Of a DNA stretch of 64,000 nucleotides, positions 5,309 through 24,088 are shown piece after piece. A program made the position numbers and the translations under genes. The stretch's first letter is position 1; each line of letters opens with the position of its first letter. This DNA comes from an uncultured Desulfobulbaceae bacterium (GTDB lineage: Bacteria > Desulfobacterota > Desulfobulbia > Desulfobulbales > Desulfocapsaceae): the NCBI GenBank assembly GCA_947311315.1, contig CAMZKN010000065.1, positions 2,648 to 66,647 on the forward strand. The letters run 5' to 3'. The notes beneath the pieces were generated by a model, which saw only the letters and a list, made by a program, of their open reading frames with translations, was not told the DNA's origin and made no database searches.

Positions 5309-5321
5309 GTAACGATGTTAA
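5309..5321. promoter_or_regulatory. Candidate TetR operator GTAACGATGTTAA
   Basis: Strong match to the palindrome about 90 bp upstream of the prpE start. Confidence 0.65.
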
Positions 5322-5411
5322 ATTTAATACTTGAAGTATATACTGTGATGCTGTATACCATGCTATGGAGACTGGTGGATGGACTTAAAATTCAGACCAA
5401 AAGGAGTGATT

Positions 5412-7307: not shown

Positions 7308-7321
7308 ATTACGTTGATGTG

Positions 7322-7353
7322 GGCAGCTGTCTGAATTGACAGCTGCCTTTTTT
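7322..7353 (+). terminator. Intrinsic terminator after prpE
   Basis: GGCAGCTGTC-tgaatt-GACAGCTGCC followed by a T run. Confidence 0.8.
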
Positions 7354-8727: not shown

Positions 8728-8944
8728 CATAAGGTCAAATAATAAGGAGCAAGTCATGAGGGGCGTGCAACTATACGTTATTTGAGTTGTGTTGGTGAAG
8801 TTTGAGCAGGGTGGCTAATTGATCATCAAAAGCACTGTATTGGCGAAGAAGTTAAATTGATATGACGAATGCTGATCCGGTTGGGGTGGAATTTTGCCTG
8901 ACCTGATTGAGGAGCATGAGTAATTTTACTTTCAAAGGAAAACA

Positions 8945-9817
8945 ATGAGTATTTTAGTGAATTCCCAGACGCGTGTCCTCGTTCAGGGCATTACAGGTAA
9001 GGAAGGTAAGTTTCATACACAGCAGTGTATTGCTTACGGCACAAATGTGGTTGCAGGTGTTACCCCCGGTAAAGGTGGTCAGTCGATGGATTCAGTTCCT
9101 GTCTTCAATACGGTTCAGGAAGCGAGAAAAGAGACAGGGGCAAATGCCTCAATGATCCTTGTGCCGCCACCTTTTGCAGCAGATGCCATTCTTGAGGCGG
9201 TTGATGCCGGCATAGAGTTGGTCGTGTGCATTACGGAAGGTGTCCCTGTCGTTGATATGATGAAAGTCAAAAACTATCTTGAACAAAATAATACCAGACT
9301 CATTGGGCCAAACTGCCCAGGCATTATAACGCCGGGTGAGTGCAAGATCGGTATTATGCCAGGCCCTATCCATACACCAGGTGGGCCGGTGGGTGTAGTG
9401 TCACGTTCTGGTACCCTCACCTATGAAGTTGTCCATCAGTTGACGGAAGTTGGCCTTGGTCAGACAACGTGTATTGGTATTGGTGGTGATCCTGTAAATG
9501 GAACAGGTTTTATTGATTGCTTGAAAGAATTTAATGACGATCCTGCAACAGAAGCCGTTGTAATGGTTGGAGAGATAGGTGGGAATGCAGAGGAAGAAGC
9601 TTCTGCCTGGATCAAAGAAAACATGAAAAAACCGGTTGTAGGTTTTATTGCCGGACTGACTGCTCCTCCAGGGAGAAGGATGGGCCATGCTGGTGCCATA
9701 GTCAGTGGCGGTCAGGGAACAGCTGCAGCGAAAATTGAAGCAATGCAGAAGGCTGGTCTCTATGTTTGTGAGGATTTGGGTGCTCTTGGAAAGCTCTGTA
9801 AAGAAGCATTTTCGTGA
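8945..9817 (+). CDS. sucD: Succinyl-CoA synthetase alpha subunit
   Basis: [35 protein letters not shown] (phospho-His). Confidence 0.98.
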
Positions 9818-9891
9818 GAAAATGTTGGTGCACTATTGATCACGGATAGCGACTGCGTTACGTGCCGGGAATTATGATCCAAGGAGATGGA

Positions 9892-11442
9892 ATGAATACG
9901 AATGACCAGCTGGACCACCTGAAGACACTCAGAGCTGAAGCAAAGCTCGGAGGCGGTCAGGCCAGGATTGACAAGCAGCATGCAAAGGGTGCAATGACTG
10001 CAAGAGAACGGATAGATTTGCTCTTAGATAAAGGGTCTTTTGAAGAGTTTGACATGTTCAAAACCCATAGATGTACTGATTTTGGCATGGAAAAGCAGGT
10101 GTTTCCAGGAGATGGTGTTGTCACCGGACACGGTACAGTGGATGGTCGCATTGTCTATGTCTATGCACAGGACTTTACTGTACTTGGCGGATCTCTTTCA
10201 GAAACTGTTTCAGAAAAAATCTGTAAGATTCTTGATCATGGTATGAAAAATGGGGCTCCTGTTATCGGACTCAATGACTCCGGTGGAGCAAGAATCCAGG
10301 AGGGAATTGAAAGCCTTGCCGGATATTCTGAAATTTTTCAGCGAAATGTAATGGCTTCTGGAGTTGTTCCGCAGATTTCAACCATTTTTGGACCATGTGC
10401 CGGTGGCGCAGTCTATTCACCGGCTTTAACTGATTTTATAGTTATGGTTCAGAATCAGTCCTATATGTTTCTCACCGGCCCTAAAGTTGTGAAATCAGTT
10501 ACCCATGAAGATGTTACAACAGAAGCTCTCGGTGGTGCGGAAATGCATGCAAGCAGGAGCGGCGTGAGTGACTATGCTGCATCTTCGGGTGCGGAGGCGG
10601 TTGAATATGTACGAAAACTGCTCTCATTTCTGCCGCAGAACAATATGGAGAATCCACCATCCATTCCATGTGAAGATCCTAAGACGCGTGAAGCCGCAGA
10701 ACTTAACGCTATTGTTCCTGATAATCCGAATGCGGCTTATGATATGATGGAGGTTATTCTTCAAACAGTGGATAACAGGGATTTTCATGAGGTTAAAGAA
10801 AAATTTGCCCCGAACATCATTGTTGGTTTTGCACGATATAATGGAATGAGTGTAGGTATAGTTGCTAATCAACCTAAATACCTGTCAGGTGTCCTCGATA
10901 TTGATTCCTCTGTTAAAGGTGCACGGTTCGTGCGATTCTGTGACTGTTTCAATATTCCCGTAGTCACTTTTGTAGATGTACCTGGTTTTTTACCGGGAAC
11001 TGCTCAGGAATATGGTGGAGTCATCAGAAATGGCGCTAAAATACTCTATGCCTATGCAGAAGCAACAGTGCCAAAAGTAACTGTTATTACCCGAAAAGCA
11101 TACGGCGGCGCTTATTGTGTCATGTCTTCAAAACATCTTAGAGGTGATATGAATTATGCATGGCCATCTGCTGAAATTGCTGTAATGGGAGCCAAAGGGG
11201 CGTCCGGGGTTCTTTATGGAAGAGCGGCCGCTAAAGCTGAAGATCCTGCTGCATTTCTTGCTCAAAAAGAAAAGGAATACCAGGATAAGGTTGCAAATCC
11301 ATATGTAGCCGCACAGCGTGGTTATATAGACGATATTATAGAACCAGCTCGAACCAGAACCAGAATTATCAAAGCTCTTGGTCTGCTGCAGAATAAGCGG
11401 GATACCAACCCGATGAAAAAGCATGGGAATATTCCTTTGTAG
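9892..11442 (+). CDS. Acyl-CoA carboxyltransferase (PccB / transcarboxylase 12S-like)
   Basis: [50 protein letters not shown]. Start ATG 9892 after AAGGAG. Confidence 0.93.
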
Positions 11443-11510
11443 TAGCGCTGATACTGGCACTGGCAAAGAGCAAAGATTCTGATAAGCTGAAATTGCATTG
11501 AGGAGATAAA

Positions 11511-11795
11511 ATGACAGTAAAAATAATTATCCAGAGAAAAGTAGAGAGTGAAAATTTTGCAGAACTTGCTCTTTTGCTAAAAAAATTACGTGCACTTACT
11601 CTTGAGCAACCTGGTTATATTTCAGGTGAGACTCTCAACAGGATTGACAGAAAAAACGAATCAATGGTGATTAGTACCTGGCGCTCTGTCGAAGATTGGA
11701 ACACGTGGGTAAATAATCCGAAACGTACCGAAATTCAAAAACAGATTGACACGCTTTTAGGTCAGCAGACGGAATACGCAATGTACAACGTCTGA
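11511..11795 (+). CDS. ABM (antibiotic biosynthesis monooxygenase) domain protein
   Basis: QPGYISGETL, VISTWRSVEDWNTW pattern; GAGGAG RBS. Confidence 0.8.
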   Translation: MTVKIIIQRKVESENFAELALLLKKLRALTLEQPGYISGETLNRIDRKNESMVISTWRSVEDWNTWVNNPKRTEIQKQIDTLLGQQTEYAMYNV

Positions 11796-11865
11796 TCCTG
11801 TTTTCATTGGAGTTATCCGCCTGTTTTACTACAGGCATTACAATTTTAATCAGTGGGTGAGTTTG

Positions 11866-12069
11866 ATGGCAGGTAAAGGGAAGAAAGTTGCAGCTGCGCT
11901 TGCTGCGGTAAGTCTCTATCTGCAGGAAGAAGAGGCAATGGCTCAGGAACAGCAGAACATTCAAGTTAACAAGAGAGTTCCTGAGTTCAGCCAGTGGGGA
12001 CAGAGTGGTCGACAGGATATGATGACCATGCGTAGATTAGTGCAATTGAGAACATTCACACGTTTTTAA
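11866..12069 (+). CDS. Small carboxyltransferase accessory (epsilon-like) subunit
   Basis: VAAALAAVSLYL...SQWGQSGR pattern resembles acyl-CoA carboxylase epsilon subunits. Lies between the carboxyltransferase and the biotin subunit. Confidence 0.55.
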   Translation: MAGKGKKVAAALAAVSLYLQEEEAMAQEQQNIQVNKRVPEFSQWGQSGRQDMMTMRRLVQLRTFTRF

Positions 12070-12123
12070 ACAGATTTTTATATAAATTATAACGGTTACA
12101 GACCAGGCGATAGGAGAAATAGG

Positions 12124-14100
12124 ATGAGTGATCAAGTGAAGATGACCCCATTGGATTATTCCGCAGAGCGGCCGGCGGCAAAGAATCCGGTTAAAATTAT
12201 GGATTTGTCCCTGCGAGATGGACATCAGTCTTTATTTGCGACCAGGGGCCGTACAGAAGATATGATTCCGGTTGCCGAAATGATGGATGAAGTTGGTTTC
12301 TGGGCGATAGAAACCTGGGGTGGTGCAACCTTTGACACCATGCACCGATTTCTCAATGAGGATCCCTGGGAGCGACTGAGAACGTTAAAGCGTTATATTA
12401 AAAAGACACCATTTTCCATGCTTCTTCGAGCGCAAAATCTCGTTGGATACAGGAATTATGCCGATGATCTTGCGTATGCTTTTGTAGAAAGGGCCGCTGA
12501 AAACGGTATGGATGTTTTTAGAACATTTGATGCGTTGAACGATTATAGAAATTTTGAAACTGTAGTCGAGCAGATCAAAAAATGTGGTAAACATTTTCAG
12601 GGCTGTATCTGCTACACTTTAACTGAACCTCGGCTTGGTGGTGAAGTATACAATCTTGAGTACTATACGGATCGTGCAAAATCGCTTGAAGATATGGGTG
12701 CTGATTCTGTATGTATTAAGGATATGGCCGGTCTGCTTGCTCCTTATGATGCGTATCCGCTGATTAAGGCTCTTAAAGAAGTTGTGAAGATACCTATTCA
12801 TCTGCATAGCCACTTTACTTCAGGGATGTCACCGATGACCCATCTTAAGGCTATTGAAGCTGGTGTGGATATTATCGATACATGTATGACACCCTATGCC
12901 TACAGAACATCCCATGCCGCAGTGGAGCCACTTGTAATGGCGCTTCTTGGTACGAATCGTGATACCGGTTTTGATATTAAGAAACTCGCTGCAATTAACG
13001 AGATATTTGAAAAAGAAATTCTACCCAAATATAAGCATCTGCTGGATGATTCAAAAGTTTCAATTATTGATATTAATGTGTTGTTGCATCAGACACCTGG
13101 TGGGATGTTGTCCAATCTTGTTAATCAGTTAAGAGAGATGGATGCCCTTGATAAAATTGACGAAGTATATAAGGAGCTGCCGAAAGTTCGTAAAGATCTT
13201 GGACAGATTCCGCTGGTAACACCGACAAGTCAGATCGTAGGTGTGCAGACTGTTAACAACGTGTTGCATGATACTCCGGATGAGCGATATAAAATGATCA
13301 CCGGGCAGGTAAAAGATCTCTGTTATGGTTTGTATGGTAAAACCGCAGTACCTATTGATGCGGAACTGCAGAAAAAAGCTCTAAAGGGCTATCCAAGGGG
13401 CGAAGAACCTATAACCTGTAAGCCTGCAGATGTACTCGAACCCGAGTTGGAAAAGGCCAAGGCAGAGATTGGAGATCTTGCTGTAGATCTCGACGATCTT
13501 ATCCTGTATGCTCAATTTCCCGTTACAGGCAAAAAATTTCTGGAATGGAAATATGGCAAATCCGAGCCACCTGAAAGTGTTAAGGCTATAACACTTGATG
13601 ATGTAAAGAAAAAAGATGAGATCCTTAAAAAGGCCAAAGAAGGAAAACTTATTGAAGCAAAAGGTGACGAACCTGCAAAATCAGGTAATGTCAGGACCTT
13701 TAATGTTTTTGTAGACAATGAATATTACAACGTTGAAGTTGATCCTACCGGAGATGCTCCCGTATTGTCTGTTGCGCCACCTGCAGCTGCGGTTGTATCG
13801 TCGGCACCAGCTGCTACAGTTCCTGCTAGCGCTGCACCTGCAGCACAAACAGCAGCCCCCTCTGAACCTTCTTCTGCTCCAGTAGATGGAACCGTATTGC
13901 TCGCTCCCATGCCTGGAATGATAATTAAATATGAAAGAGCTGAAGGTGATCAGGTAAAATCCGGTGATACTATTGTTGTCCTCGAGGCAATGAAGATGGA
14001 AAATTCTCTTACTGCTCCCTGTGATGGCACAGTGCAGGGTATTAAATTTGCTAGTGGAGACACAGTGTCCAAAGGTGCAGTGCTGTGTATAATCAGCTAA
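12124..14100 (+). CDS. Pyruvate carboxyltransferase (5S/OadA-like) fused to a C-terminal biotin carrier
   Basis: DLSLRDGHQSLFATR, ETWGGATFD, IKDMAG, HLHSH, PLVTPTSQIVG; Ala/Pro linker; LEAMKME biotinylation motif. Confidence 0.93.
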   Translation: MSDQVKMTPLDYSAERPAAKNPVKIMDLSLRDGHQSLFATRGRTEDMIPVAEMMDEVGFWAIETWGGATFDTMHRFLNEDPWERLRTLKRYIKKTPFSMLLRAQNLVGYRNYADDLAYAFVERAAENGMDVFRTFDALNDYRNFETVVEQIKKCGKHFQGCICYTLTEPRLGGEVYNLEYYTDRAKSLEDMGADSVCIKDMAGLLAPYDAYPLIKALKEVVKIPIHLHSHFTSGMSPMTHLKAIEAGVDIIDTCMTPYAYRTSHAAVEPLVMALLGTNRDTGFDIKKLAAINEIFEKEILPKYKHLLDDSKVSIIDINVLLHQTPGGMLSNLVNQLREMDALDKIDEVYKELPKVRKDLGQIPLVTPTSQIVGVQTVNNVLHDTPDERYKMITGQVKDLCYGLYGKTAVPIDAELQKKALKGYPRGEEPITCKPADVLEPELEKAKAEIGDLAVDLDDLILYAQFPVTGKKFLEWKYGKSEPPESVKAITLDDVKKKDEILKKAKEGKLIEAKGDEPAKSGNVRTFNVFVDNEYYNVEVDPTGDAPVLSVAPPAAAVVSSAPAATVPASAAPAAQTAAPSEPSSAPVDGTVLLAPMPGMIIKYERAEGDQVKSGDTIVVLEAMKMENSLTAPCDGTVQGIKFASGDTVSKGAVLCIIS

Positions 14101-14252
14101 GGATATAATATCTGCTTTCTCATCAGACCGAGTGTGAAATGGTACTTTTCCCTCCCTGTACCTTTCATGCTCTGTCTGTTTCTTCTGATAACTTCCTCTG
14201 TGTCTGTAGGTTTTCGTACGATAGAAATGGTCTTGAGTATCGGAGATGATTT

Positions 14253-14762
14253 ATGATTCTTAAAGAGCTTAATGGATGTACTCCCCAATATGGCGAAGAT
14301 TGTTTTTTTGCCGAGAATGCTGTGCTTGTCGGTGATGTGGAAATGGGGAATGAGTGTTCCATCTGGTATAACGCTGTTCTTCGTGGTGACGTGCACTATA
14401 TACGTATGGGTGACAGGGTGAATATTCAGGATGGTGCTGTTGTTCACTGTACATACAAGAAATATCCGGTGAATATTGGCAACAATGTTTCGGTTGGGCA
14501 TAATGCAATAGTACATGGATGTACTATTCATGATAATGTACTCATTGGAATGGGTGCGATCGTGATGGACGATTGTGTGGTGGAGAGTAATACGATTATT
14601 GCTGCTGGTGCTGTAGTAACCCAGGGGAAAAGAGTAGAATCGGGGACGATTTATGCTGGTGTTCCTGCGAAAAAAGTTAAAGATATCAGTACTGAGCTTA
14701 TCTCTGGTGAAATCGAAAGAATTGCGCAGAACTACGTTAAGTATGCAGGTTGGTACAAATAA
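14253..14762 (+). CDS. Gamma-class carbonic anhydrase family (hexapeptide repeat) protein
   Basis: WYNAVLRGD, NIQDGAVVH, VGHNAIVHGCTI. Confidence 0.92.
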   Translation: MILKELNGCTPQYGEDCFFAENAVLVGDVEMGNECSIWYNAVLRGDVHYIRMGDRVNIQDGAVVHCTYKKYPVNIGNNVSVGHNAIVHGCTIHDNVLIGMGAIVMDDCVVESNTIIAAGAVVTQGKRVESGTIYAGVPAKKVKDISTELISGEIERIAQNYVKYAGWYK

Positions 14763-14771
14763 AACGATGTG

Positions 14772-15767
14772 TTAATCTGTAGTACTGCCTATTGTCGGAA
14801 GGAATCTAAGCAGCATATCAGCTGCCGCAGTCGGGGATGTGTTTTTTGATTCTACATCCTTTTGTAGTTCGTTGAGTGCTTTTTTAACATCTGGAGTATT
14901 GTAAAACCACTGACGCAGACCATCGTCCAGTAGAAAAGACATCCAGTCAAGTGCCTGTGTTTTCCTTTTGCTTGCCATTTCGCCACAGTCCGTCAATTTT
15001 GTTCTGTGTTCTTTTATAGTTTCCCAGATTTTGTCTATACCGTTTCCGTTGATGGAGCTGCATGTGAGGACAGGTGGTGTCCAGTTTGGACTGTTGGGCA
15101 TAAGCATATGCAGTGCAGTTTCATACTCTCTTTGAGCAATTTCAGCGCGAGTCACATTGTCTCCATCGGCCTTGTTGATGACGATGGCATCGGCAACTTC
15201 TAAAACACCCTTTTTAATACCCTGCAACTCATCTCCGGCACCGGCTATCATAAGCACCAGAAAAAAATCGACCATGGAAGAAACTGTGGTTTCCGATTGG
15301 CCTACGCCAACGGTCTCAATAATGGCCACATCATAGCCAGCTGCTTCACAAACGAGCATCGTTTCTCTTGTTTTACGGCCAACACCGCCAAGAGTACCAC
15401 TTGATGGCGATGGACGAATAAAGGCTTTAGGGTTAACTGCAAGTTTTTCCATGCGTGTTTTGTCGCCAAGAATTGAGCCGCCACTTCTACTGCTGCTGGG
15501 GTCAATCGCCAGCACGGCAACCTTGTGACCAATTTCTGTCAACATGGTGCCAAAGGTTTCGATATAGGTGCTTTTTCCTGCACCGGGAACACCGGTAATG
15601 CCAATACGAATACCTTTTCCAGTGTGTGGCAGCAGCTGGTTGACTATGATCCTTGCACGTTCCTGGTGGGCGGGGAGGGTGCTCTCGATAAGCGTTATTG
15701 TCCTGGCGAGAGCGAGTCGATCATGGCTGAGGATGCCTTCTACGTATTCTTCTGGGCTTTTTAGCAT
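14772..15767 (-). CDS. meaB: Methylmalonyl-CoA mutase-associated GTPase
   Basis: LARTITLIES, GITGVPGAGKST, DPSSSRSGGSILGDKTRM, ETVGVGQSE, GDELQGIKKG. Confidence 0.97.
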   Translation of the reverse strand: MLKSPEEYVEGILSHDRLALARTITLIESTLPAHQERARIIVNQLLPHTGKGIRIGITGVPGAGKSTYIETFGTMLTEIGHKVAVLAIDPSSSRSGGSILGDKTRMEKLAVNPKAFIRPSPSSGTLGGVGRKTRETMLVCEAAGYDVAIIETVGVGQSETTVSSMVDFFLVLMIAGAGDELQGIKKGVLEVADAIVINKADGDNVTRAEIAQREYETALHMLMPNSPNWTPPVLTCSSINGNGIDKIWETIKEHRTKLTDCGEMASKRKTQALDWMSFLLDDGLRQWFYNTPDVKKALNELQKDVESKNTSPTAAADMLLRFLPTIGSTTD

Positions 15768-15936
15768 GGCTGGGAATTTTTGATGAATTATGTACGTATA
15801 ACACTATGAATGTAACAGTTTAGCAGTGCCTTGCATGTTCACGATTGGTCCAATTAGCAGATAAGCGACAGACTTCGATACATTTGTATGCTGATTGGAC
15901 TAATCGTGGGCAGGTGAGGTGCTGATGAATTGTTAT

Positions 15937-15991
15937 AAAAAACGCAACAGATCCAGTTGCAAAGCGAGGGAGAACAACCGGATCCGTTGCG
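15937..15991 (-). terminator. Intrinsic terminator after the mutase gene
   Basis: 17-bp stem (15943-15959 / 15975-15991). The two mismatches are G.U on the minus-strand RNA, and a U6 tract follows. Confidence 0.7.
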
Positions 15992-16006
15992 GTACTACAG
16001 GAGACG

Positions 16007-18151
16007 CTATCCCAGATACTTCTCTTCCAGGAGAGTAAGTGTTTTTCCGGCGGATTCCGGAATAGGTGTTCCGGGTCCAAAAACTGCCTTAACGCCGCTG
16101 TCAAAAAGGAAGTCATAGTCACCTGGTGGAATGACTCCTCCGGCTACAACGAGAATTTCCTCCCCGCCTGCTTTTTTAAGTTCTTCAATCAGTGCCGGGA
16201 TAAGTGATTTGTGCCCGGCTGCAAGACTTGAAGCGCCAACAACATGGACATCATTCTCAATGGCCATTTTTGCGGCTTCCTCCGGAGTTTGGAACATCGG
16301 ACTGATATCAACATCAAATCCAAGATCAGCATAAGCGCTGGCAACAATTTTAAAGCCACGGTCGTGACCATCCTGCCCCATCTTCGTGACGAGCAGGCGT
16401 GGGCGTCTACCCTGTTTTTCAAGAAAAGTTGTAGTTCTCTTTTTAATTTCATCAATGGCACCACTGTCTCCTTTATATTCAGAAGAGTAGGCACCTGAAA
16501 TGCAGCGGGTAGTCGCAACAAAACGACCAAAGACACTTTCCATGGCATCGGATATCTCACCCACGGTAGCTCTTGCTCGAACTGCAGGAAGGGCTGCTTC
16601 AAGGAGGTTGCCGTCGTTTTGTGCAGCAGCTGTAAGGTCAGCAAGTGCTTTCTCAACAGCTGTCTGGTCGCGAGTGGCTTTGATTTCTTTTAATCTGGCC
16701 ACTTGCTCATCCCGAACAGTGCCAGGAACTTCACGTACATCAAAATCAATTTTTTCATCTTCAAGCTTGTATTTATTCACTCCAACTATGACGTCAAGGC
16801 CCTGATCAATAAGAGCCTGTTTTCTTGCAGCGGATTCTTCGATACGCATTTTGGGCATACCGGTTTCAATAGCCTTTGCCATGCCGCCCAGTTCTTCGAT
16901 TTCGTCTATAATTTTCTGTGCTTCACTGATTATGCTGTCGGTGAGAGATTCAACGTAGTAGGATCCTCCCAACGGGTCTATGACATGACAAATTTGCGAT
17001 TCTTCCTGAACGATAATTTGCGTGTTTCTTGCAATTCGGGCAGAAAAATCAGTTGGTAGTCCAATAGCTTCGTCAAAGGAGTTGGTGTGCAGAGACTGGG
17101 TGCCACCAAGAACTGCGGTCATTGCCTCCATCGTTGTACGGATCACATTGTTGTATGGATCCTGTTCGGTGAGGCTCCAGCCGGAAGTTTGGCAATGGGT
17201 TCGCAACATCGATGATTTCGGGTTTTTGGGATTAAACTGACTCATCAGGCGGTACCAGAGGAATCGTGCAGCCCGAAGCATGGAGATATCCATGAAAAAA
17301 TTCATGCCAATGCCAAAAAAGAAAGAAAGTCTCGGTGCAAATGTATCGATATCCATGCCACTCTTTAGGGCAGCTTTGACGTATTCAACACCGTCGGCCA
17401 GGGTAAATGCCGTTTGCAGAACGCTGTTTGCCCCCGCCTCCATCATGTGATACCCACTGATACTGATGGTGTTGTATTTGGGCATGGTGGTGGAGCAGAA
17501 TTCCATGATGTCTGAGATAATCCGCATGGATGGACCTGGTGGATAGATGTAGGTGTTTCGTGTGAGGTATTCTTTGAGGATGTCGTTCTGGATTGTTCCT
17601 GAAAGTTGATCGTGGCTGACACCCTGTTCTTCTGCGGCAACAATATATCCGGCGAGGATCGGAATAACCGCACCGTTCATGGTCATTGAGACAGACATCT
17701 TGTCAAGGGGAATACCGTCGAACAATATTTTCATGTCTTCCACGGAATCGATAGCAACGCCAGCTTTGCCAATATCGCCCGCGACTCTAGGGTGATCTGA
17801 ATCGTATCCGCGATGTGTTGCCAGGTCAAAAGCTACAGAAAGGCCTTTTTGGCCTGCCGCAAGAGCCTTGTGGTAAAAGGCGTTTGATTCCTTGGCGGTG
17901 GAGAATCCCGCATATTGTCTGATAGTCCACGGCCGACCTGCATACATTGTAGCCATGGGGCCACGCACGTAGGGAGCCATTCCCGGTAGCGTGTTTGCTG
18001 ATTCCATGCCCTCAAGATCTTCAGCAGTATACAAAGGTTTAACGTTTATACCTTCCGGGGTCATCCAGTCGAGTTTATCGACGGCTTTACCCTTCATTTG
18101 CTTGGAGGCGAGTTCCGCCCATTTTTGATATTCAGGATGTTTTGACATCAT
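16007..18151 (-). CDS. scpA: Methylmalonyl-CoA mutase (B12-dependent, full-length catalytic subunit)
   Basis: [49 protein letters not shown]12-binding motif; 714 aa. Confidence 0.98.
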
Positions 18152-18227
18152 CTACTCCTCGGTTGCAGAGAACAAAAAAAATAAAAAACATCACATCATC
18201 CCCTGGCAGGGGGAAATGGTGGTAATG

Positions 18228-18632
18228 TTATGAACGTTCACAAAGTTCTACGAGAACTCCGCCTGTAGCTTTCGGGTGCAAAAAGGCAATTTTAGCACCA
18301 CCCGCACCGATTCTGGGTTTCTGGTCGATAAGTTGAATGCCTTTTTCTTTCAGTTCCTCAAGTGCGGCTTCTATATCGGCGACACGAAAGGCAACATGCT
18401 GAAAACCTGTGCCTTTTTTATCAATAAACTTTGCAACAGGGCCGTCAGGAGAAGTTGATTCCAGCAACTCTACTTCGCTCTCTCCAACTGGGAAAAATGC
18501 TGTTGTAACTTTTTGTGCTTCCACTGTTTCTGACCCTTCGAACTGTAGCCCAAGAACTTCTGTCCAGAAATTTTTGCCATCTTCTATATTGTTCACGGCA
18601 ATGCCCAAATGATCAATCTTCAGTATTTCCAT
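18228..18632 (-). CDS. mce: Methylmalonyl-CoA epimerase
   Basis: IDHLGIAV, EVELLE, GFQHVAFRV, AFLHPKATGGVLVELCE. Start at ATG 18632 after GGAGG. Confidence 0.96.
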   Translation of the reverse strand: MEILKIDHLGIAVNNIEDGKNFWTEVLGLQFEGSETVEAQKVTTAFFPVGESEVELLESTSPDGPVAKFIDKKGTGFQHVAFRVADIEAALEELKEKGIQLIDQKPRIGAGGAKIAFLHPKATGGVLVELCERS

Positions 18633-18685
18633 ATCATCCTCCAAAATCTTAATCAGAATTTTACCAAATTCGGTATGTTTATGGT

Positions 18686-19318
18686 TTATGTTTCACGGTT
18701 ATTGGAATCAGTACGAGAGTTTTGTGTTGAATTTTCAGGGTTGGCCATACCCTGCCATACCATTTCAAACATGATGTTGGCCTGTTCGGACAGACTTTCC
18801 TGTTTGCCGCGAAGTATCCACATAAAAAAGCTCCGCTGGACAAATCCCATCAGGAAGTCGAGAAGAACAGCTGCTCGGACGTGTGGATTAAAAACTCCTT
18901 CTTTTTGCCCCTGCCTCAGAACATCAATCATGAGAGACATCATTCGAGGCTGGGCAAATGTTTCATCAACCATCCAGGTTTTCATGGGAAGTGTCATGAA
19001 GACAATTCTGCCTAATCCTTCGTGTTTCTCGTAGTAATCGAGTTGTAGCCAGAAAACTTTTCGGAGTTTTTCTTTCAGATTCTCAATGCCCTGGAGGTGA
19101 TCGATAATGCGATCAGTAAGTTTTCCCATCCAGATGTCAACAAAAGCGAAAACCAGACGTTCTTTGCTGCCGTAATGTTTGTAAATAGTGGTAAAACTAA
19201 CTCCGGCTTTGTTGGCAATTTCCCGAATGGAAGCTTTGTGAAAATCTGAATGTGAAAAGACTTCGAGAACAGCTCGTTCAAGTCTTTGATGGATATCTTC
19301 GTTTAGGTCATCTAACAT
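18686..19318 (-). CDS. TetR/AcrR family regulator (paralog 1)
   Basis: FHKASIREIANKAGVSFTTIYKHYGSKERL HTH; closely similar to 23333-23941. Confidence 0.93.
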   Translation of the reverse strand: MLDDLNEDIHQRLERAVLEVFSHSDFHKASIREIANKAGVSFTTIYKHYGSKERLVFAFVDIWMGKLTDRIIDHLQGIENLKEKLRKVFWLQLDYYEKHEGLGRIVFMTLPMKTWMVDETFAQPRMMSLMIDVLRQGQKEGVFNPHVRAAVLLDFLMGFVQRSFFMWILRGKQESLSEQANIMFEMVWQGMANPENSTQNSRTDSNNRET

Positions 19319-19324
19319 TGTTAC
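19312..19324. promoter_or_regulatory. Candidate TetR operator overlapping the TetR-1 start codon
   Basis: CTAACATTGTTAC (reverse complement GTAACAATGTTAG). Confidence 0.6.
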
Positions 19325-19503
19325 TGTTGTATGTTCTCTGTGGATAATTAAAGAATTGTAGAAAAGTTATGTCGTTGAAAAAACGATATTATTAAGTTTG
19401 CAATTCGTGTAAGTGTATACTTGTTATTGGCGCGATTGTGTTTGTAACTAACTGAAAAGTAATGTTAAAAATAAAAAGCAAGCCAATAAATAATAGTTAT
19501 TGG

Positions 19504-19516
19504 ATAACATCGTTAC
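19504..19516. promoter_or_regulatory. Candidate TetR operator upstream of TetR-1/mce/mutase
   Basis: ATAACATCGTTAC (reverse complement GTAACGATGTTAT); 12 of 13 nt identical to the site at 5309. Confidence 0.65.
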
Positions 19517-19680
19517 GCATATGTTGTAATGCATTGCGTATTTCTTTTCAAGTAAAAAGCGGTTTCTGCATGTTTTATGGAGTATTTAACTGGCGAAAAG
19601 AACATTGTCTGGAAAATGCAGGTGAGGGTTGGAAGAGCAGTAAACAATGATTCATTTGGGCTCTTCCAACCTTCTGGATA

Positions 19681-20844
19681 TTATTTTCCGAAAAGAGACA
19701 AGAGTACGCCCGCTGAAACAGCAGAGCCTATAACGCCTGCAACGTTGGGGCCCATGGCATGCATAAGCAGAAAGTTTGATGGATCTTCTTTCTGTCCAAC
19801 CACCTGGGAGACTCTTGCCGCCATGGGGACTGCCGAAACTCCAGCCGAACCAATAAGCGGATTGATGTTGAGATTGAGAAATTTATTCATCACTTTTGCC
19901 AGGAGAACACCGGAAGCGGTGCCTATGGCAAAAGCTGTTACCCCAAGAGTTAGAATCGCAAGTGTTTCAACGCGTAAAAATTGTTCTGCTGTAGCCGTTG
20001 CGCCAACTGTAACACCAAGAAAAATGGTGATAATGTTGATAAGGGTATTTTTGGCTGTATCTTCGAGTCGTGCGACAACGCCACATTCCCTGAAGAGATT
20101 GCCTAGCATTAACATACCAATAAGTGTCGCAGCTGGTGGTACCATAAGTGAAACAATAATTGTTACAATTATGGGGAAGATGATTTTTTCACGTTTACTG
20201 ACATCTCTGAGCTGGGTCATTTTAATGGTCCGCTCGCTTTTTGTTGTCAATAATCGCATGATAGGCGGTTGTATGATTGGTACCAAAGCCATATAGGAAT
20301 AGGCGGCAATGGCTATGGGGCCGAGGAGGTGGGGTGCAAGTTTTGAAGAAAGAAAAATTGCAGTTGGACCGTCTGCGCCGCCTATTATTCCTATTGACGC
20401 GGCTTCTTGGGCAGTGAACAGTCCGGATGCGATTGCACCGATAAAGGTGATAAATATACCAAATTGAGCAGCAGCTCCGAGTAAAAGTGATTTTGGATTT
20501 GCGATTAGCGGGCCAAAATCAGTCATTGCACCAACACCCATGAAAATCAGTGGAGGAAAGATACCCAGATGGTCACCCTGAAAGAGATAATACAACAGGC
20601 CGCCGGGTTCGATTGTGTGGATTACGTTGCCTGTGATTTTCATCACCGGTTCTGTCATGAGCCCTGCATAAGGGAGGTTGGTCAGTAGGACGCCAAATGC
20701 TATGGGAACAAGAAGTAAGGGCTCGAATTTCTTAACAATGGCCAGGTACAGCAAAAGGAAAGAAACGCAGAGCATTAGAACCGCTCCTGTAGTTAAGCCA
20801 TAAAAACCTGTGGATCTGAAGAAGTCGAGAAGAGCTTCCAGCAT
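19681..20844 (-). CDS. mmdB: Na+-translocating decarboxylase beta subunit (MmdB/OadB)
   Basis: [63 protein letters not shown]. Confidence 0.96.
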
Positions 20845-20859
20845 GGTAAGTGTCTCCTT

Positions 20860-21258
20860 TTAAGATGACAGCACGATGAGGGTATCACCTGCGTTAACGG
20901 ATGCGTCTTTGGTGACGTTGATTTCCTTGACAGTGCCGTCAGTTGTGGCCATGATTTCATTTTCCATTTTCATAGCCTCCAGCACAAGGAGAGGTTGCCC
21001 TTTGGTTACTTTGTCACCAACACTTACCATTATATTGAGCACAGTACCGGGGATGGGAGCAACGAGTGCGCCACCGGTCGGGGCTGAATCAGCTGCAGCT
21101 TGAGGCTGCGTTGCTTTGGGGGTGGCTGGTTTAGGTGCTGCTGGTTTTGGAGCGGGGGTAGCGGTATTCTGGACAGGGGCGGGGCTGTGTCCCTCTGTCA
21201 ATTCTTCAATTTCAACTGTGTATTCACTGCCGTTGACGATAACTCTGAACTTTTTCAT
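20860..21258 (-). CDS. mmdC: Biotin carboxyl carrier (gamma) subunit
   Basis: MKKFRVIVNGSEYTVEIEE, Ala/Pro linker, LEAMKMENEI. Confidence 0.92.
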   Translation of the reverse strand: MKKFRVIVNGSEYTVEIEELTEGHSPAPVQNTATPAPKPAAPKPATPKATQPQAAADSAPTGGALVAPIPGTVLNIMVSVGDKVTKGQPLLVLEAMKMENEIMATTDGTVKEINVTKDASVNAGDTLIVLSS

Positions 21259-21276
21259 ATCTTTCCTCTGTCGTAA

Positions 21277-21687
21277 TTATAATCTGTTGTTCATCAGGTC
21301 GGTGATACCTGCCTGACTCCATACCGAAGTCGAAGGTTTGCTCTTCTTGATGTTTCTGATGACAATATTGTCCACGGATGTTGCCATCTTCATGGCAATA
21401 ACACTACTCATTACTGCTATTAGCTCTTTGTCGTCCTCGATGTTCTCTGGCCTGGCCTCAGGTTCTGTTTTCTCTGGAATGCTTGATGCAATTTCTGCTT
21501 TGTTTGCAGGTCTATTGAGAAGTTTATCCATCCATGAAATAACAAACTGCAAAACGATGAGGGCTGAAAAGGTGATTCCCATTCCGAGGCAAACGGTGAC
21601 AAGCCCTGCCATCATTTTGTCTGACATAGAGAGAGACTGAATGATTTCCGGGTCACTAAATTTGGTCAGGAGTTCACTGATAGTCAT
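21277..21687 (-). CDS. mmdD: OadG/MmdD family membrane-anchor (delta) subunit
   Basis: One TM segment LGMGITFSALIVL, IAVMSSVIA, C-terminal SVWSQAG. Confidence 0.85.
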   Translation of the reverse strand: MTISELLTKFSDPEIIQSLSMSDKMMAGLVTVCLGMGITFSALIVLQFVISWMDKLLNRPANKAEIASSIPEKTEPEARPENIEDDKELIAVMSSVIAMKMATSVDNIVIRNIKKSKPSTSVWSQAGITDLMNNRL

Positions 21688-21702
21688 GTTGTCTCCATGG
21701 TG

Positions 21703-23250
21703 TTAAAGTGGAAGGTTTCCATGTTTTTTGGCGGGTCGTTTTTCGCGTTTTCCCTTGAGCATCATAAAGGCATCAATGATTCTTTGGCGACTCGTCTGCG
21801 GCTCGATAACGTCGTCGACAAAACCACGTTCGGCAGCTTTGTAAGGTGTTGCAAATTCAGCAGCGTATTCGTTGATAATTTTTTGTTTGGTAGCTGCTTT
21901 ATCTTCGGCTTTGGCGATATCATTTTTGAAAATAATGTTAACCGCTCCCTCTGATCCCATGACGGCAACTTCTGCAGTCGGCCAGGCAAAAACCATGTCG
22001 GCACCTAAAGATTTTGAGCACATGGCAACATAGGCACCACCGTATGCCTTGCGGGTGATAAGGGTTACTTTCGGGACAGTGGCTTCACTGTAAGCATAAA
22101 GGATTTTTGCCCCGTGCCTGATGATGCCATTATATTCCTGGTTTGTGCCAGGGAGAAATCCAGGAACATCGACAAGGGTGAGAAGTGGGATGTTGAAAGC
22201 GTCACAGGTTCTGATAAATCGTGCAGCTTTGTCCCCGGCATTCATATCAAGACACCCGGCCATAACATTTGGTTGATTGGCGACTATACCAACTGATTTA
22301 CTGTTTATTCGTGCATAGCCGGTAATAAGATTTGTGGCAAAATATGGCAGATATTGCAGGAAATAACCATCGTCGACCAGGGGAACAATGACGTCGAGGA
22401 TGTCGTATGGTTTGTTCGGGTTGTCTGGGATTATGTCGTTGAGTTCAGAAATCTGTCTGTTTGGGTCGTCAGTACAGGGGGTGTCCGGTGCAGTTTCCAT
22501 GCTGTTTGAAGGTAGAAACTGCAATAATTCTCTAATGCTGGCCAGACAGTGCAGTTCTGATTCTGCAAGAAAATGAACATTGCCACTGACGCTGTTGTGG
22601 GTCATTGCTCCACCAAGATCTTCAGCGGAGACGATTTCACCGGTTACTGTTTTAATGACCTGTGGGCCGGTGATGAACATCTGTGATGTCTTGTCGACCA
22701 TTATAATGAAATCAGTTAAAGCAGGGGAATAAACAGCTCCGCCGGCGCAAGGACCCATAATTGCAGAGATCTGTGGGATAACGCCGGAATAGATAGAATT
22801 TCTGAAAAAGATATCTCCAAAACCGTTTAGAGCGTCGACGGCCTCTTGGATTCTTGCACCTCCAGAGTCGTTGAGGCCAACCATTGGGGCCCCGATTTTG
22901 GCAGCGGCATCCATTGCTTTGACGATTTTTCTGGAGTGCATTTCACCCAACGCTCCACCGGTAATGGTGAAATCCTGAGAATATGCGTAAACGATTCGCC
23001 CCTCAATCCGCCCGTAACCTGTGACCACAGATTCACCTTCGACATCAAGGTTTTCCAGGCCAAATCGGTTGCACCTGTTTTTAATAAAGGCATCTGTCTC
23101 GATGAATGTTCCTTCGTCAAAAAGATGGTGAAGGCGTTCCCTTGCCGTCATTTTCCCTTTTGCGTGTTGTTTTTTTATTCTGTCCTGGCCACCTCCAAGA
23201 GCAAGTTTTTCCTTTTTCTTAATTAAAAGATCTTTTTTATCCAAAGACAT
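21703..23250 (-). CDS. mmdA: Methylmalonyl-CoA decarboxylase alpha (carboxyltransferase) subunit
   Basis: [42 protein letters not shown]. Start ATG 23250 after AAGGAG. Followed by the delta, gamma and beta subunits. Confidence 0.9.
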   Translation of the reverse strand: MSLDKKDLLIKKKEKLALGGGQDRIKKQHAKGKMTARERLHHLFDEGTFIETDAFIKNRCNRFGLENLDVEGESVVTGYGRIEGRIVYAYSQDFTITGGALGEMHSRKIVKAMDAAAKIGAPMVGLNDSGGARIQEAVDALNGFGDIFFRNSIYSGVIPQISAIMGPCAGGAVYSPALTDFIIMVDKTSQMFITGPQVIKTVTGEIVSAEDLGGAMTHNSVSGNVHFLAESELHCLASIRELLQFLPSNSMETAPDTPCTDDPNRQISELNDIIPDNPNKPYDILDVIVPLVDDGYFLQYLPYFATNLITGYARINSKSVGIVANQPNVMAGCLDMNAGDKAARFIRTCDAFNIPLLTLVDVPGFLPGTNQEYNGIIRHGAKILYAYSEATVPKVTLITRKAYGGAYVAMCSKSLGADMVFAWPTAEVAVMGSEGAVNIIFKNDIAKAEDKAATKQKIINEYAAEFATPYKAAERGFVDDVIEPQTSRQRIIDAFMMLKGKREKRPAKKHGNLPL

Positions 23251-23332
23251 GTATTCTGCTCCTTGATAAATGTTTATCAGTATTACGGCGGACATATTCA
23301 GCCGCGCTTTTTAAATTACCGATCGAGGTATT

Positions 23333-24075: not shown

Positions 24076-24088
24076 GTAACATTGTTAC
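24076..24088. promoter_or_regulatory. Candidate TetR operator, perfect palindrome GTAACATTGTTAC
   Basis: Perfect 6-1-6 inverted repeat upstream of TetR-2/mmdA. Confidence 0.7.

What the first reader, a model, noticed from the sequence alone, without database searches (positions are those of the whole stretch)
9892..23250. Two complete, convergent biotin-dependent methylmalonyl-CoA machines in one locus: soluble transcarboxylase and Na+-pumping decarboxylase
Seen: the plus-strand arm has a carboxyltransferase (9892), a small subunit and a pyruvate-carboxyltransferase-biotin fusion (12124), with no biotin carboxylase in the window. The minus-strand arm has a second carboxyltransferase paralog (mmdA), a membrane anchor, a biotin carrier and an OadB-type Na+ pump. 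Mutase, epimerase and meaB lie between the two arms. Established: propionate oxidisers use methylmalonyl-CoA:pyruvate transcarboxylase, while Veillonella and Propionigenium use MmdABCD to conserve energy from succinate decarboxylation. Inference: this organism could switch between propionate oxidation and Na+-motive succinate-to-propionate decarboxylation. Alternatively it could drive propionyl-CoA carboxylation by reversed Na+ flow without ATP.
Basis: partly seen in the sequence, partly recalled or inferred. Interest (0 to 1): 0.6.

Follow-up and report, generated by a model that had tools for sequence, protein, structure and literature searches.

The report
Transcarboxylase plus sodium-pump decarboxylase locus
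A marine sulfate-reducer relative keeps two different biotin enzymes for the same step of propionate metabolism side by side, a soluble carboxyl-swapping enzyme and a membrane sodium pump; both are known kinds, but their conserved pairing suggests an untested energy-saving flexibility.

Summary
On the plus strand, window 5379-14762 encodes an acyl-CoA synthetase, sucCD, carboxyltransferase CT1, an ABM protein, a 70-aa protein, a 5S/OadA-like carboxyltransferase fused to a biotin carrier, and a gamma-carbonic-anhydrase-like protein. On the minus strand, 23941-14772 encodes tetR-mmdA-mmdD-mmdC-mmdB and tetR-epimerase-mutase-meaB. Catalytic, biotinylation and Na+-site motifs are intact.

Both refuting conditions were tested and not met. 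The genome has its own oadG-oadA-oadB operon, a pycA-pycB pair (pycB split by an IS) and accC-accAD elsewhere.

The two-arm locus occurs in all 10 sampled genomes of the genus and about 45% of 120 family genomes (Desulfocapsaceae by relatives' labels).

New here:
- The mmd arm is of the Fusobacteria/Clostridia type.
- CT1 is nested among pump-linked carboxyltransferases.
- The 70-aa protein is an anchorless homolog of the pump's delta subunit, so this transcarboxylase probably arose from a decarboxylase.
- A TAAC-N3-GTTA operator precedes acs, tetR-epi-mcm and tetR-mmd, but not the transcarboxylase genes.

The direction of the pump in vivo is unresolved. Both enzymes are known kinds. This scan has noted related hybrid or pump-less systems on other DNA. 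Interest is moderate.

The parts
5309..5321 (.). TAAC-N3-GTTA operator-like inverted repeat, about 60-70 nt upstream of acs. A second, weaker site lies about 280 nt upstream.
   Evidence: 1 mismatch. The position is conserved at about -66 to -74 and -263 to -303 in 14 of 19 orthologous loci.
5379..7307 (+). AMP-forming acyl-CoA synthetase (PrpE/Acs-like), probably for propionate activation.
   Evidence: AMP-binding E 3.2e-77; propionate-CoA ligase models 763 and 696 bits (below their cut-offs); Acs subfamily model 674 bits (above cut-off 657).
7321..7348 (+). Intrinsic-terminator-like hairpin (11 pairs plus a T run) after acs.
7410..8567 (+). sucC, succinyl-CoA synthetase beta subunit.
   Evidence: ATP-grasp_2 E 2e-73, Ligase_CoA.
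8945..9817 (+). sucD, succinyl-CoA synthetase alpha subunit. The 377-nt gap before it holds a MITE-like repeat.
9862..11442 (+). CT1, a 12S-type methylmalonyl-CoA carboxyltransferase. This is the transcarboxylase arm.
   Evidence: It is 57% identical to CT2. It is linked to 5S in a clade of 28-29 CT rows (27 with a 5S gene alongside; the other 1-2 loci are cut off).
11511..11795 (+). ABM-domain protein of 94 aa with unknown role. It is conserved next to CT1.
   Evidence: It is 66% identical to a paralog that heads the oadGAB operon on C190.
11857..12069 (+). Epsilon-like 70-aa subunit. It is homologous to the C-terminal half of the MmdD/OadG delta subunit and has no membrane helix. Proposed role: soluble assembly adaptor.
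   Evidence: No Pfam match. Conserved in 43 loci directly after a carboxyltransferase. hhalign to the delta subunits of the sister pump-linked clade: probability 96.7%, E 4.7e-10, 58 columns. To all delta subunits: 89%.
12124..14100 (+). 5S/OadA/PycB-like oxaloacetate-pyruvate carboxyltransferase fused to a biotin carrier (EAMKM at residue 622).
   Evidence: HMGL-like + PYC_OADA + Biotin_lipoyl. Metal and carbamyl-lysine motifs RDGHQS, KDMAG and HLH are present.
14253..14762 (+). Gamma-carbonic-anhydrase/PaaY-like hexapeptide-repeat protein at the end of the plus arm.
   Evidence: Syntenic in most relatives.
14772..15767 (-). meaB, the mutase-associated GTPase.
   Evidence: E 1.9e-113.
16007..18151 (-). 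Fused B12-dependent methylmalonyl-CoA mutase. A terminator-like hairpin follows at 15961-15943.
18228..18644 (-). Methylmalonyl-CoA epimerase (glyoxalase fold).
18686..19318 (-). TetR1, a YsiA/FadR-like regulator and first gene of the epimerase-mutase unit.
19504..19516 (.). Operator-like site upstream of tetR1.
   Evidence: Conserved at about -192 to -219 in relatives, among the 12 of 20 loci that carry at least one site upstream of tetR1.
19681..20844 (-). mmdB, the Na+-translocating carboxybiotin decarboxylase beta subunit.
   Evidence: The equivalents of OadB Glu40, Asp203, Tyr229, Arg304, Asn311, Asn373, Gly377, Ser382 and Asn412 are conserved in the printed alignment. Their roles are taken from PMC7274780.
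20860..21258 (-). mmdC, a 132-aa biotin carrier (EAMKM at residue 95) with an N-terminal association motif.
21277..21687 (-). mmdD, the delta subunit: a single-helix membrane anchor with a C-terminal tail.
21703..23295 (-). mmdA (CT2), the carboxyltransferase of the pump.
   Evidence: Every complete CT2-clade locus is pump-linked, and the clade is sister to a Fusobacteriaceae sequence.
23333..23941 (-). TetR2, a paralog of TetR1 and first gene of the mmd unit.
24076..24088 (.). Perfect GTAAC-N3-GTTAC operator-like site upstream of tetR2.
   Evidence: Conserved upstream of tetR2 in 8 of 11 loci; where tetR2 is missing it lies directly upstream of mmdA, in 10 of 16 loci.

Best explanation
The locus is the methylmalonyl-CoA pathway core of a Desulfocapsaceae-type sulfate reducer. 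It carries two intact biotin enzymes that act on the same methylmalonyl-CoA/propionyl-CoA pair.

(1) CT1, the epsilon-like protein and the 5S-biotin-carrier fusion form a soluble methylmalonyl-CoA:pyruvate transcarboxylase. It moves a carboxyl group between oxaloacetate/pyruvate and methylmalonyl-CoA/propionyl-CoA without ATP and without releasing CO2. It is the reversible core for propionate oxidation and for propionate-forming fermentation. The epsilon-like protein, an anchorless copy of the pump's delta tail, is inferred to hold the complex together in the cytoplasm.

(2) MmdA-D-C-B is a membrane complex. MmdA passes the carboxyl group of (S)-methylmalonyl-CoA to the biotin on MmdC, and MmdB decarboxylates the carboxybiotin while exporting Na+.

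Together they free the pathway from the fixed 1:1 oxaloacetate/propionyl-CoA stoichiometry. When C4 carbon exceeds what the transcarboxylase can pass on (succinate, fumarate or malate supply, or net C4-to-C3 flux), the pump releases CO2 and conserves the energy as a Na+ gradient. Because transcarboxylase and pump share intermediates, the pair can also act as a net Na+-pumping oxaloacetate decarboxylase.

Shown: gene content, intact motifs, conservation, separate partners for the other biotin enzymes, and the shared operator. Inferred: complex composition, the role of epsilon, substrates, and the forward direction of the pump. I put forward operation as the main mode at about 0.55-0.6 and reverse operation at about 0.25. 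The identity of the two machines alone I rate at about 0.85; the confidence given here is for the whole statement including the forward direction.
For: Domains and motifs are intact.

The gene order mmdA-D-C-B matches the Veillonella/Propionigenium mmdADECB order as I recall it. The single-operon layout in those organisms is stated in PMC11575231.

No biotin carboxylase lies in the window, and the two elsewhere have their own partners. A separate oadG-oadA-oadB operon exists.

The CT1-epsilon-5S adjacency is conserved across Desulfobulbales and in Accumulibacter/Propionivibrio loci that have no pump nearby. Some family genomes have CT1 but no pump found, namely G022 at 94% and G041 at 99% completeness.

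Transcarboxylase activity has been measured in Desulfobulbus propionicus (PMC3072085).

CT2 and MmdB are closest, outside the order, to Fusobacteriaceae and Clostridia pump operons. That is the group of the succinate-decarboxylating Propionigenium.

The two-arm locus is kept in 10 of 10 genomes of the genus and about 45% of the family sample.

Ten TRAP DctP-family binding proteins and three CoA-transferase candidates could supply and process dicarboxylates.
Against: There is no expression or enzyme data for this organism or any close relative; no RNA run is on record.

The mmd operon shares its operator with the AMP-forming acs, which acts in the propionate-consuming direction. That fits reverse operation at least as well as forward.

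In a marine cell with a large Na+ gradient, forward pumping of 2 Na+ per CO2 may be close to equilibrium (my estimate).

Both carboxyltransferases score below the curated cut-off of TIGR01117 (806 and 900 against 998.8 bits).

The 5S protein is closer to PycB and OadA structures than to the Propionibacterium 5S. Its assignment as a transcarboxylase subunit therefore rests on context.

The specificity of the CoA-transferases is unknown.
Confidence: 0.58

Rival explanations
1. The gene assignments are the same, but in vivo the Mmd complex runs mainly in reverse. The large marine Na+ gradient drives ATP-free carboxylation of propionyl-CoA. This primes and refills the otherwise autocatalytic transcarboxylase cycle during propionate oxidation, in place of pyruvate carboxylase.
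For: The operator is shared by acs, tetR1-epi-mcm and tetR2-mmd, but is absent upstream of sucC, CT1 and 5S.

pycB is split by an IS in this assembly. A PycA ortholog was not found in 3 of 10 genomes of the genus, while Mmd is in all 10.

Reversal of Oad and Mmd was shown in vitro by Dimroth and Hilpert 1984 (cited in PMC7274780). A review of propionate oxidisers mentions the pump as an alternative for this step (PMC8892533).
Against: The transcarboxylase already carboxylates propionyl-CoA at no cost.

Across the family there is no clear anticorrelation between PycA and Mmd: several genera have both, and one genus (g16) has neither.

A repressor that senses propionyl-CoA or methylmalonyl-CoA would give the same operator pattern in either direction.

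Reverse operation in vivo has never been shown for any Mmd (to my knowledge).
Confidence: 0.25
2. The 5S-biotin-carrier fusion also docks onto MmdD/MmdB. One pump would then serve two carboxyltransferase heads and act as both an oxaloacetate and a methylmalonyl-CoA decarboxylase.
For: Eight Bacillota loci carry a 12S-type carboxyltransferase, a 5S-type protein and a pump on one strand within 5 kb. Earlier notes of this scan describe such hybrid operons.

The fusion has an association motif (RTFNVFVDNEYYNVEVD) like the N-terminus of MmdC.
Against: The 5S gene lies in the opposite arm, next to a soluble delta-tail homolog that would occupy that motif.

The genome has a dedicated oadG-oadA-oadB operon.

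The CT1-epsilon-5S set persists in genomes where no pump was found.
Confidence: 0.07
3. The plus arm is an ATP-dependent carboxylase, either pyruvate carboxylase or propionyl-CoA carboxylase. It would use the orphan-looking PycA biotin carboxylase encoded elsewhere.
For: A PycA-like biotin carboxylase exists, and its own pycB is interrupted by an IS in this assembly.

The best NCBIfam model for the 5S protein is 'pyruvate carboxylase subunit B' (714 bits against a cut-off of 402).
Against: pycA is immediately followed by its own pycB, which is only 27% identical to the window's 5S.

No biotin carboxylase lies next to CT1 or 5S in any of the related loci examined.

Transcarboxylase activity has been measured in D. 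propionicus (PMC3072085).
Confidence: 0.07

Closest known systems
Na+-translocating methylmalonyl-CoA decarboxylase MmdABCDE of Veillonella parvula and Propionigenium modestum (EC 7.2.4.3)
   Same: It has the alpha carboxyltransferase, the delta anchor, the gamma biotin carrier and the beta pump in the same order, and the Na+-site residues are intact. CT2 and MmdB group with Fusobacteriaceae and Clostridia pump operons.
   Different: There is no epsilon gene inside the mmd operon. The host is a sulfate-reducer relative. The operon is headed by a TetR gene and sits beside a transcarboxylase. The delta and gamma subunits are only 25-50% identical to those of the Bacillota and Fusobacteriaceae loci.
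Methylmalonyl-CoA:pyruvate transcarboxylase of Propionibacterium freudenreichii (12S + 5S + 1.3S; EC 2.1.3.1; PDB 1ON3, 1RQB)
   Same: It pairs a 12S-type and a 5S-type carboxyltransferase with a biotin carrier and has neither a biotin carboxylase nor a pump. The carrier has an association motif that, from memory, resembles the 1.3S N-terminus.
   Different: The carrier is fused to the 5S protein. An extra epsilon-like subunit and an ABM protein are encoded between the two carboxyltransferases. The 5S protein is closer to PycB/OadA than to the Propionibacterium 5S (478 and 445 against 396 bits). CT1 descends from pump-linked carboxyltransferases.
mmc gene cluster of Pelotomaculum thermopropionicum and other syntrophic propionate oxidisers (mmcH alpha, mmcI epsilon, mmcJ gamma, mmcL 5S; PMC8892533)
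   Same: Carboxyltransferase, epsilon-like small protein, biotin carrier, 5S, sucCD, mutase and epimerase are clustered.
   Different: Here the carrier is fused to 5S. The fumarase, malate dehydrogenase and pyruvate:ferredoxin oxidoreductase genes are not in the cluster. A full Na+ pump operon is added.
Oxaloacetate decarboxylase Na+ pump OadGAB of Salmonella, Vibrio and Klebsiella (PDB 6IVA, 2NX9)
   Same: The beta subunit matches at E 2.8e-130 and the key residues are conserved. The interaction between the gamma tail and the alpha association domain is the likely model for the epsilon/5S and delta/MmdC contacts.
   Different: The carboxyl donor of the window's pump is an acyl-CoA carboxyltransferase, not OadA. 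The genome's OadGAB-type operon lies elsewhere, on C190.

Membership tests
Na+-translocating methylmalonyl-CoA decarboxylase (MmdABCD(E)) | Alpha subunit: a 12S/PccB-type acyl-CoA carboxyltransferase. | tested here: met
   PF01039 E 4.7e-195. TIGR01117 mmdA scores 899.5 bits, below its curated cut-off of 998.8. The oxyanion motifs GPCAGGA and RKAYGGAY are visible in the alignment.
Na+-translocating methylmalonyl-CoA decarboxylase (MmdABCD(E)) | Beta subunit of the OadB family with Na+-binding and catalytic residues. | tested here: met
   TIGR01109 scores 520.6 bits against a cut-off of 190.6. The alignment to 6IVA keeps the Glu40, Asp203, Tyr229, Arg304, Asn311, Asn373, Gly377, Ser382 and Asn412 equivalents (roles from PMC7274780).
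Na+-translocating methylmalonyl-CoA decarboxylase (MmdABCD(E)) | A separate small biotin carrier with the biotinyl-lysine motif. | tested here: met
   132 aa, Biotin_lipoyl E 5.5e-20, EAMKM at residue 95. The MmdC equivalog model scores 97.8 bits, below its cut-off of 200.
Na+-translocating methylmalonyl-CoA decarboxylase (MmdABCD(E)) | Delta subunit: a single-helix OadG-family anchor with a C-terminal tail. | tested here: met
   PF04277 E 1.1e-14. TIGR01195 scores 40.8 bits against a cut-off of 36.05. There is a hydrophobic N-terminal segment.
Na+-translocating methylmalonyl-CoA decarboxylase (MmdABCD(E)) | Methylmalonyl-CoA-dependent Na+ transport. | not testable with these tools
   Only context is available: the epimerase and mutase are adjacent.
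Methylmalonyl-CoA:pyruvate transcarboxylase (EC 2.1.3.1) | A 12S-type carboxyltransferase and a 5S-type oxo-acid carboxyltransferase encoded together. | tested here: met
   CT1 and 5S lie in one co-directional gene run. They match 1ON3 at E 6.8e-177 and 1RQB at E 3e-117. The adjacency is conserved in the 5S-linked CT clade (27 CT rows with a 5S gene alongside).
Methylmalonyl-CoA:pyruvate transcarboxylase (EC 2.1.3.1) | A biotin carrier that serves both carboxyltransferases. | tested here: met
   It is present as a C-terminal domain of 5S, with EAMKM at residue 622. It is fused rather than a free 1.3S subunit.
Methylmalonyl-CoA:pyruvate transcarboxylase (EC 2.1.3.1) | No biotin carboxylase and no pump subunit belong to the set. 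| tested here: met
   No biotin carboxylase is in the window, and the two elsewhere have their own partners. Relatives have CT1-epsilon-5S with no pump nearby, and a few with none found in the genome.
Methylmalonyl-CoA:pyruvate transcarboxylase (EC 2.1.3.1) | Measured carboxyl transfer between methylmalonyl-CoA and pyruvate. | not testable with these tools
   The activity is reported for Desulfobulbus propionicus, in the same order (PMC3072085), not for this organism.
Oxaloacetate decarboxylase Na+ pump (window 5S + window pump) | The alpha (OadA) gene is encoded with the gamma and beta genes in one operon. | tested here: not met
   5S lies in the opposite arm, about 5.6 kb from mmdB and on the other strand. 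The genome's oadG-oadA-oadB operon is on C190.
Two-subunit pyruvate carboxylase PycAB (window 5S as PycB) | PycB is encoded next to a PycA biotin carboxylase. | tested here: not met
   pycA on C31 is followed by its own pycB, which continues on C59 and is 27% identical to the window's 5S.

The most novel reading that the evidence does not exclude
In these marine sulfate reducers the Mmd complex works in vivo as a propionyl-CoA carboxylase driven by the Na+ gradient and independent of ATP. It is co-induced with propionate activation by a TetR/acyl-CoA switch. It primes and refills the transcarboxylase cycle, and this makes pyruvate carboxylase dispensable: pycB is IS-split here, and PycA was not found in 3 of 10 genomes of the genus.
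Probability: 0.22. Interest if true: 0.7.

Novelty: new member of a known kind. Interest (0 to 1): 0.4.

Why it matters
Propionate turnover by Desulfobulbales-type sulfate reducers is a major carbon sink in marine sediments, and its energy budget is tight.

A conserved locus pairs the cost-free transcarboxylase with a Na+-coupled entry or exit for CO2. This predicts a flexibility that current pathway charts for sulfate reducers do not include: extra energy conservation on C4 substrates, or ATP-free anaplerosis.

The locus also offers a clean natural example of how a soluble transcarboxylase can arise from a membrane decarboxylase. The pump and carrier are exchanged for a 5S-carrier fusion, and the membrane anchor is trimmed to a soluble adaptor.

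Finally, it provides a defined operator and paired TetR regulators whose ligands can be tested.

Tried and rejected
- **Expression.** The look-up of sequencing runs listed no RNA holder.
- **Literature.** No paper holds 'methylmalonyl-CoA decarboxylase' together with 'transcarboxylase' and 'Desulfobulbus', or together with 'Desulfocapsaceae'. This covers only the open-access library.
- **Source genome.** The 'Ca. Desulfobulbus rimicarensis' MAG was checked as a possible source. It does not fit in size, contig number or G+C content.
- **Operator, genome-wide.** The exact motif GTAAC-N3-GTTAC is not enriched in the genome: 3 matches against about 4 expected. The case for an operator rests on positional conservation in relatives.
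- **PycA versus Mmd.** The prediction that Mmd-bearing genomes lack PycA gave no clear pattern across the family, and related genomes are not independent.
- **Transporters.** DcuA/DcuB transporters were not found in the 96%-complete genome.
- **Phylogeny as a test of function.** It failed, because the CT1-type serves both pumps and 5S partners.
- **Reference sequences.** Named sequences (Propionibacterium 12S, Veillonella MmdA, Pelotomaculum Mmc) could not be placed in the tree, because only PDB scores were available for them, not sequences. Family-level stand-ins were used instead (Veillonellaceae and Fusobacteriaceae loci).
- **Other substrates.** A glutaconyl-CoA decarboxylase reading of the minus arm was considered. 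It was rejected on the TIGR01117 score and the adjacency of epimerase and mutase.

Full report

Plus strand:
- AMP-forming acyl-CoA synthetase (PrpE/Acs-like), 5379-7307
- sucC, 7410-8567
- sucD, 8945-9817
- carboxyltransferase CT1, 9862-11442
- ABM-domain protein, 11511-11795
- 70-aa ORF, 11857-12069
- 658-aa fusion of HMGL-like, PYC_OADA and Biotin_lipoyl domains, 12124-14100
- gamma-carbonic-anhydrase/PaaY-like protein, 14253-14762

Minus strand, read 5' to 3':
- tetR2, 23941-23333
- mmdA/CT2, 23295-21703
- OAD_gamma anchor, 21687-21277
- biotin carrier, 21258-20860
- OAD_beta pump, 20844-19681
- tetR1, 19318-18686
- epimerase, 18644-18228
- fused mutase, 18151-16007
- meaB, 15767-14772

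The two arms converge at 14762/14772.

**Integrity.**
- Both carriers have the EAMKM biotinylation motif.
- The 5S-like protein keeps the RDGHQS, KDMAG and HLH motifs, which correspond to the metal and carbamyl-lysine ligands of this fold.
- The pump aligns with the solved Salmonella OadB at E 2.8e-130. It keeps the equivalents of Glu40, Asp203, Tyr229, Arg304, Asn311, Asn373, Gly377, Ser382 and Asn412, residues shown to be needed for Na+ binding or catalysis (PMC7274780).
- CT1 and CT2 are 57% identical. Both match propionyl-CoA carboxylase beta subunits and the Propionibacterium 12S subunit at E below 1e-170.
- Both score on TIGR01117 (806 and 900 bits) below its strict cut-off of 998.8.

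The whole assembly has 3.59 Mb in 230 contigs and is 96% complete.
- It holds two biotin carboxylases. One (C96) is followed by a fused accA/accD gene and is the acetyl-CoA carboxylase.
- The other (C31) is PycA-like and is followed at once by the start of a pycB gene. That gene breaks off at an inverted repeat at the contig end and continues at the end of C59. The same terminal repeats lie at 18 contig ends, so a multi-copy IS interrupts pycB.
- There are three PYC_OADA proteins, only 25-27% identical to each other, and two pumps.
- The second pump lies in an ABM-oadG-oadA-oadB operon on C190.

Each biotin carboxylase and the second pump therefore has its own partner. The window's pump has its own carboxyltransferase, anchor and carrier. 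Neither refuting condition is met. The IS in pycB leaves a caveat, which is treated as a rival.

**Taxon and conservation.** The nearest relatives carry the labels Desulforhopalus, Desulfopila, Desulfofustis and Desulfobulbaceae. dsrAB is present. The full two-arm layout recurs in several MAGs (L024, L025, L028, L057).

In a sample of 120 genomes of the family:
- a CT2 ortholog (at least 70% identity) was found in 54;
- a MmdB ortholog (at least 79%) was found in about 51;
- all 10 genomes of the genus have both;
- the two carboxyltransferases often lie 11-12 kb apart on one contig.

Two genomes carry mmd genes with internal stops or splits (G019, G098), so the arm is sometimes lost. Some genomes have a CT1 type but no pump found (G022, G041).

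**Evolution.** Two trees were built from the carboxyltransferases of the fetched loci, each sequence labelled by its neighbours. One is a FastTree of 157 sequences and the other an IQ-TREE of 67 sequences.
- *CT2.* CT2 lies in a clade whose complete loci are all pump-linked. That clade is sister to a Fusobacteriaceae sequence inside a mainly Bacillota group (SH-aLRT 98-99). MmdB shows the same pattern: 75% identity to the Fusobacteriaceae locus against 56-57% to the pumps of Desulfocapsa-type loci. The mmd operon as a unit is therefore of the Propionigenium/Clostridia type and was probably acquired laterally.
- *CT1.* CT1 lies in a 5S-linked clade of 28 sequences (Desulfobulbales plus Accumulibacter/Propionivibrio). 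That clade is nested inside successive pump-linked clades (39, 46 and 51 sequences; support 99). In Desulfocapsa, proteins 79-82% identical to CT1 sit in sucCD-meaB-mcm-epi-CT-delta-mmdC-mmdB operons. Sequence alone therefore cannot tell transcarboxylase from decarboxylase.
- *The 70-aa ORF.* It is conserved in 43 loci directly after a carboxyltransferase. It has no Pfam match. Profile comparison shows that it matches the C-terminal half of the delta subunits of the sister pump-linked clade over 58 columns, with probability 96.7% and E 4.7e-10. It lacks the membrane helix.

The simplest reading is that this transcarboxylase arose from a methylmalonyl-CoA decarboxylase. The pump and carrier were replaced by a 5S-carrier fusion, and the anchor was trimmed to a soluble adaptor. 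From memory, the epsilon subunit of the Veillonella enzyme was described as similar to the delta C-terminus; I could not check this in the library.

**Regulation.** A TAAC-N3-GTTA inverted repeat gives four matches in the 64-kb window. They lie upstream of acs, upstream of tetR1 (two, one overlapping its start codon) and upstream of tetR2.

In orthologous loci the site recurs at fixed distances:

| Upstream of | Loci with at least one site |
|---|---|
| acs | 14 of 19 |
| tetR1 | 12 of 20 |
| tetR2 | 8 of 11 |
| mmdA (300 nt upstream; intergenic where tetR2 is missing) | 10 of 16 |
| sucC | 2 of 21 |
| CT1 | 6 of 40 |
| 5S | 0 of 29 |

A strong terminator follows acs, and another follows the mutase. 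Propionate activation, the isomerisation steps and the pump thus share a probable TetR operator. The transcarboxylase/sucCD unit does not. I found it independently before seeing that note.

**How it most likely works.** The transcarboxylase exchanges a carboxyl group between oxaloacetate/pyruvate and methylmalonyl-CoA/propionyl-CoA. This activity has been measured in Desulfobulbus propionicus (PMC3072085). It serves both propionate oxidation and propionate-forming fermentation.

The pump gives the methylmalonyl-CoA pool a second way to gain or lose CO2, one that is coupled to Na+. Running forward, it conserves energy whenever there is net C4-to-C3 flux. Together with the transcarboxylase it amounts to a net Na+-pumping oxaloacetate decarboxylase. 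Ten TRAP binding proteins and several CoA-transferase candidates make dicarboxylate use plausible.

Running in reverse, it would carboxylate propionyl-CoA at the expense of the Na+ gradient. This reversal has been shown in vitro (Dimroth and Hilpert 1984, cited in PMC7274780). From textbook values I recall, the decarboxylation releases roughly 30 kJ/mol. Oxaloacetate decarboxylase moves two Na+ per cycle (PMC7274780), and I assume the same for Mmd. On those figures the enzyme should be near equilibrium in a well-energised marine cell, and its direction would follow the metabolic state.

The shared operator with acs and the decay of pycAB in this genus give the reverse mode real weight. I rate forward operation as the main mode at about 0.55-0.6 and reverse at about 0.25.

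**Comparison and novelty.** Both machines are members of known kinds: MmdABCD(E), and transcarboxylase of the mmc type (PMC8892533). A review already remarks that propionate oxidisers carry genes annotated as the Na+ pump, and a 2024 metatranscriptome paper invokes it (PMC11225162).

What I did not find described is:
- the conserved convergent pairing in Desulfocapsaceae;
- the foreign origin of the mmd arm;
- the descent of the transcarboxylase from a decarboxylase;
- the operator pattern.

Earlier notes of this scan on other genomes describe related themes: pump-less transcarboxylases built from decarboxylase parts, and hybrid operons with two carboxyltransferases on one pump. The finding is real and ordinary in kind, and of moderate interest for anaerobe bioenergetics.

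**Limits.** There are no expression data and no biochemistry for this lineage. The genome is a fragmented assembly. Related genomes are not independent samples. The composition of both complexes is inferred.

Noticed in passing
G000 contigs C31:5870-6069 and C59:47118-47377 (outside the window; loci L007, L193): The pycB gene that follows pycA is interrupted after about codon 25 by an element with about 30-bp terminal inverted repeats. The same termini lie within about 125 nt of 18 contig ends, so a multi-copy IS breaks the assembly and splits pycB.
   Followed up: partly
G000 contig C190:242-4529 (locus L190): A second Na+ pump operon, ABM-oadG-oadA-oadB. Its OadB is 505 aa and has an N-terminal signal-like segment and a lipoyl-like domain (Biotin_lipoyl 26 bits) fused in front of the pump. 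Pump frames of 500-600 aa of this type are common in the family sample. Its alpha subunit is only 27% identical to the window's 5S, so its substrate is uncertain.
   Followed up: partly
window 11511-11795 and L190:242-550: Two ABM-domain proteins that are 66% identical accompany two different biotin enzyme operons in one genome. ABM genes also precede pump-linked carboxyltransferases in other phyla (L146, L148, L150, L167, L173, L175, L180). No function is known for this recurrent companion.
   Followed up: partly
window 8568-8944 (about 8614-8730): The unusually long sucC-sucD spacer (377 nt, against 38-290 nt in most relatives) contains a repeat of about 115 nt with more than 30 copies across the genome. 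It is a MITE-like element inside the operon.
   Followed up: partly
window 24603-26218: A metallo-beta-lactamase-fold gene and an HDAC/AcuC-like deacetylase are transcribed divergently from tetR2. The deacetylase is syntenic in relatives. An AcuC-type enzyme could control the acyl-CoA synthetase by lysine deacylation; this was not tested.
   Followed up: no
loci L054, L059, L064, L069, L071, L075, L083, L090: In these Bacillota loci a 12S-type carboxyltransferase, a 5S-type protein and a pump lie on one strand within 5 kb. These are hybrid operons of the kind noted elsewhere in this scan.
   Followed up: no
related genomes G019:C1:1167854-1171225 and G098:C79:33263-34416: The mmd genes carry internal stops or are split in two family genomes. 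This indicates that the pump arm is being lost in some lineages.
   Followed up: no
L108 (Desulfopila aestuarii DSM 18488), after the gamma-CA-like gene: In this cultured relative a third carboxyltransferase type follows the plus arm on the opposite strand. It is 57% identical to CT1 and scores better with CT1 than with CT2. Its partners were not examined.
   Followed up: no
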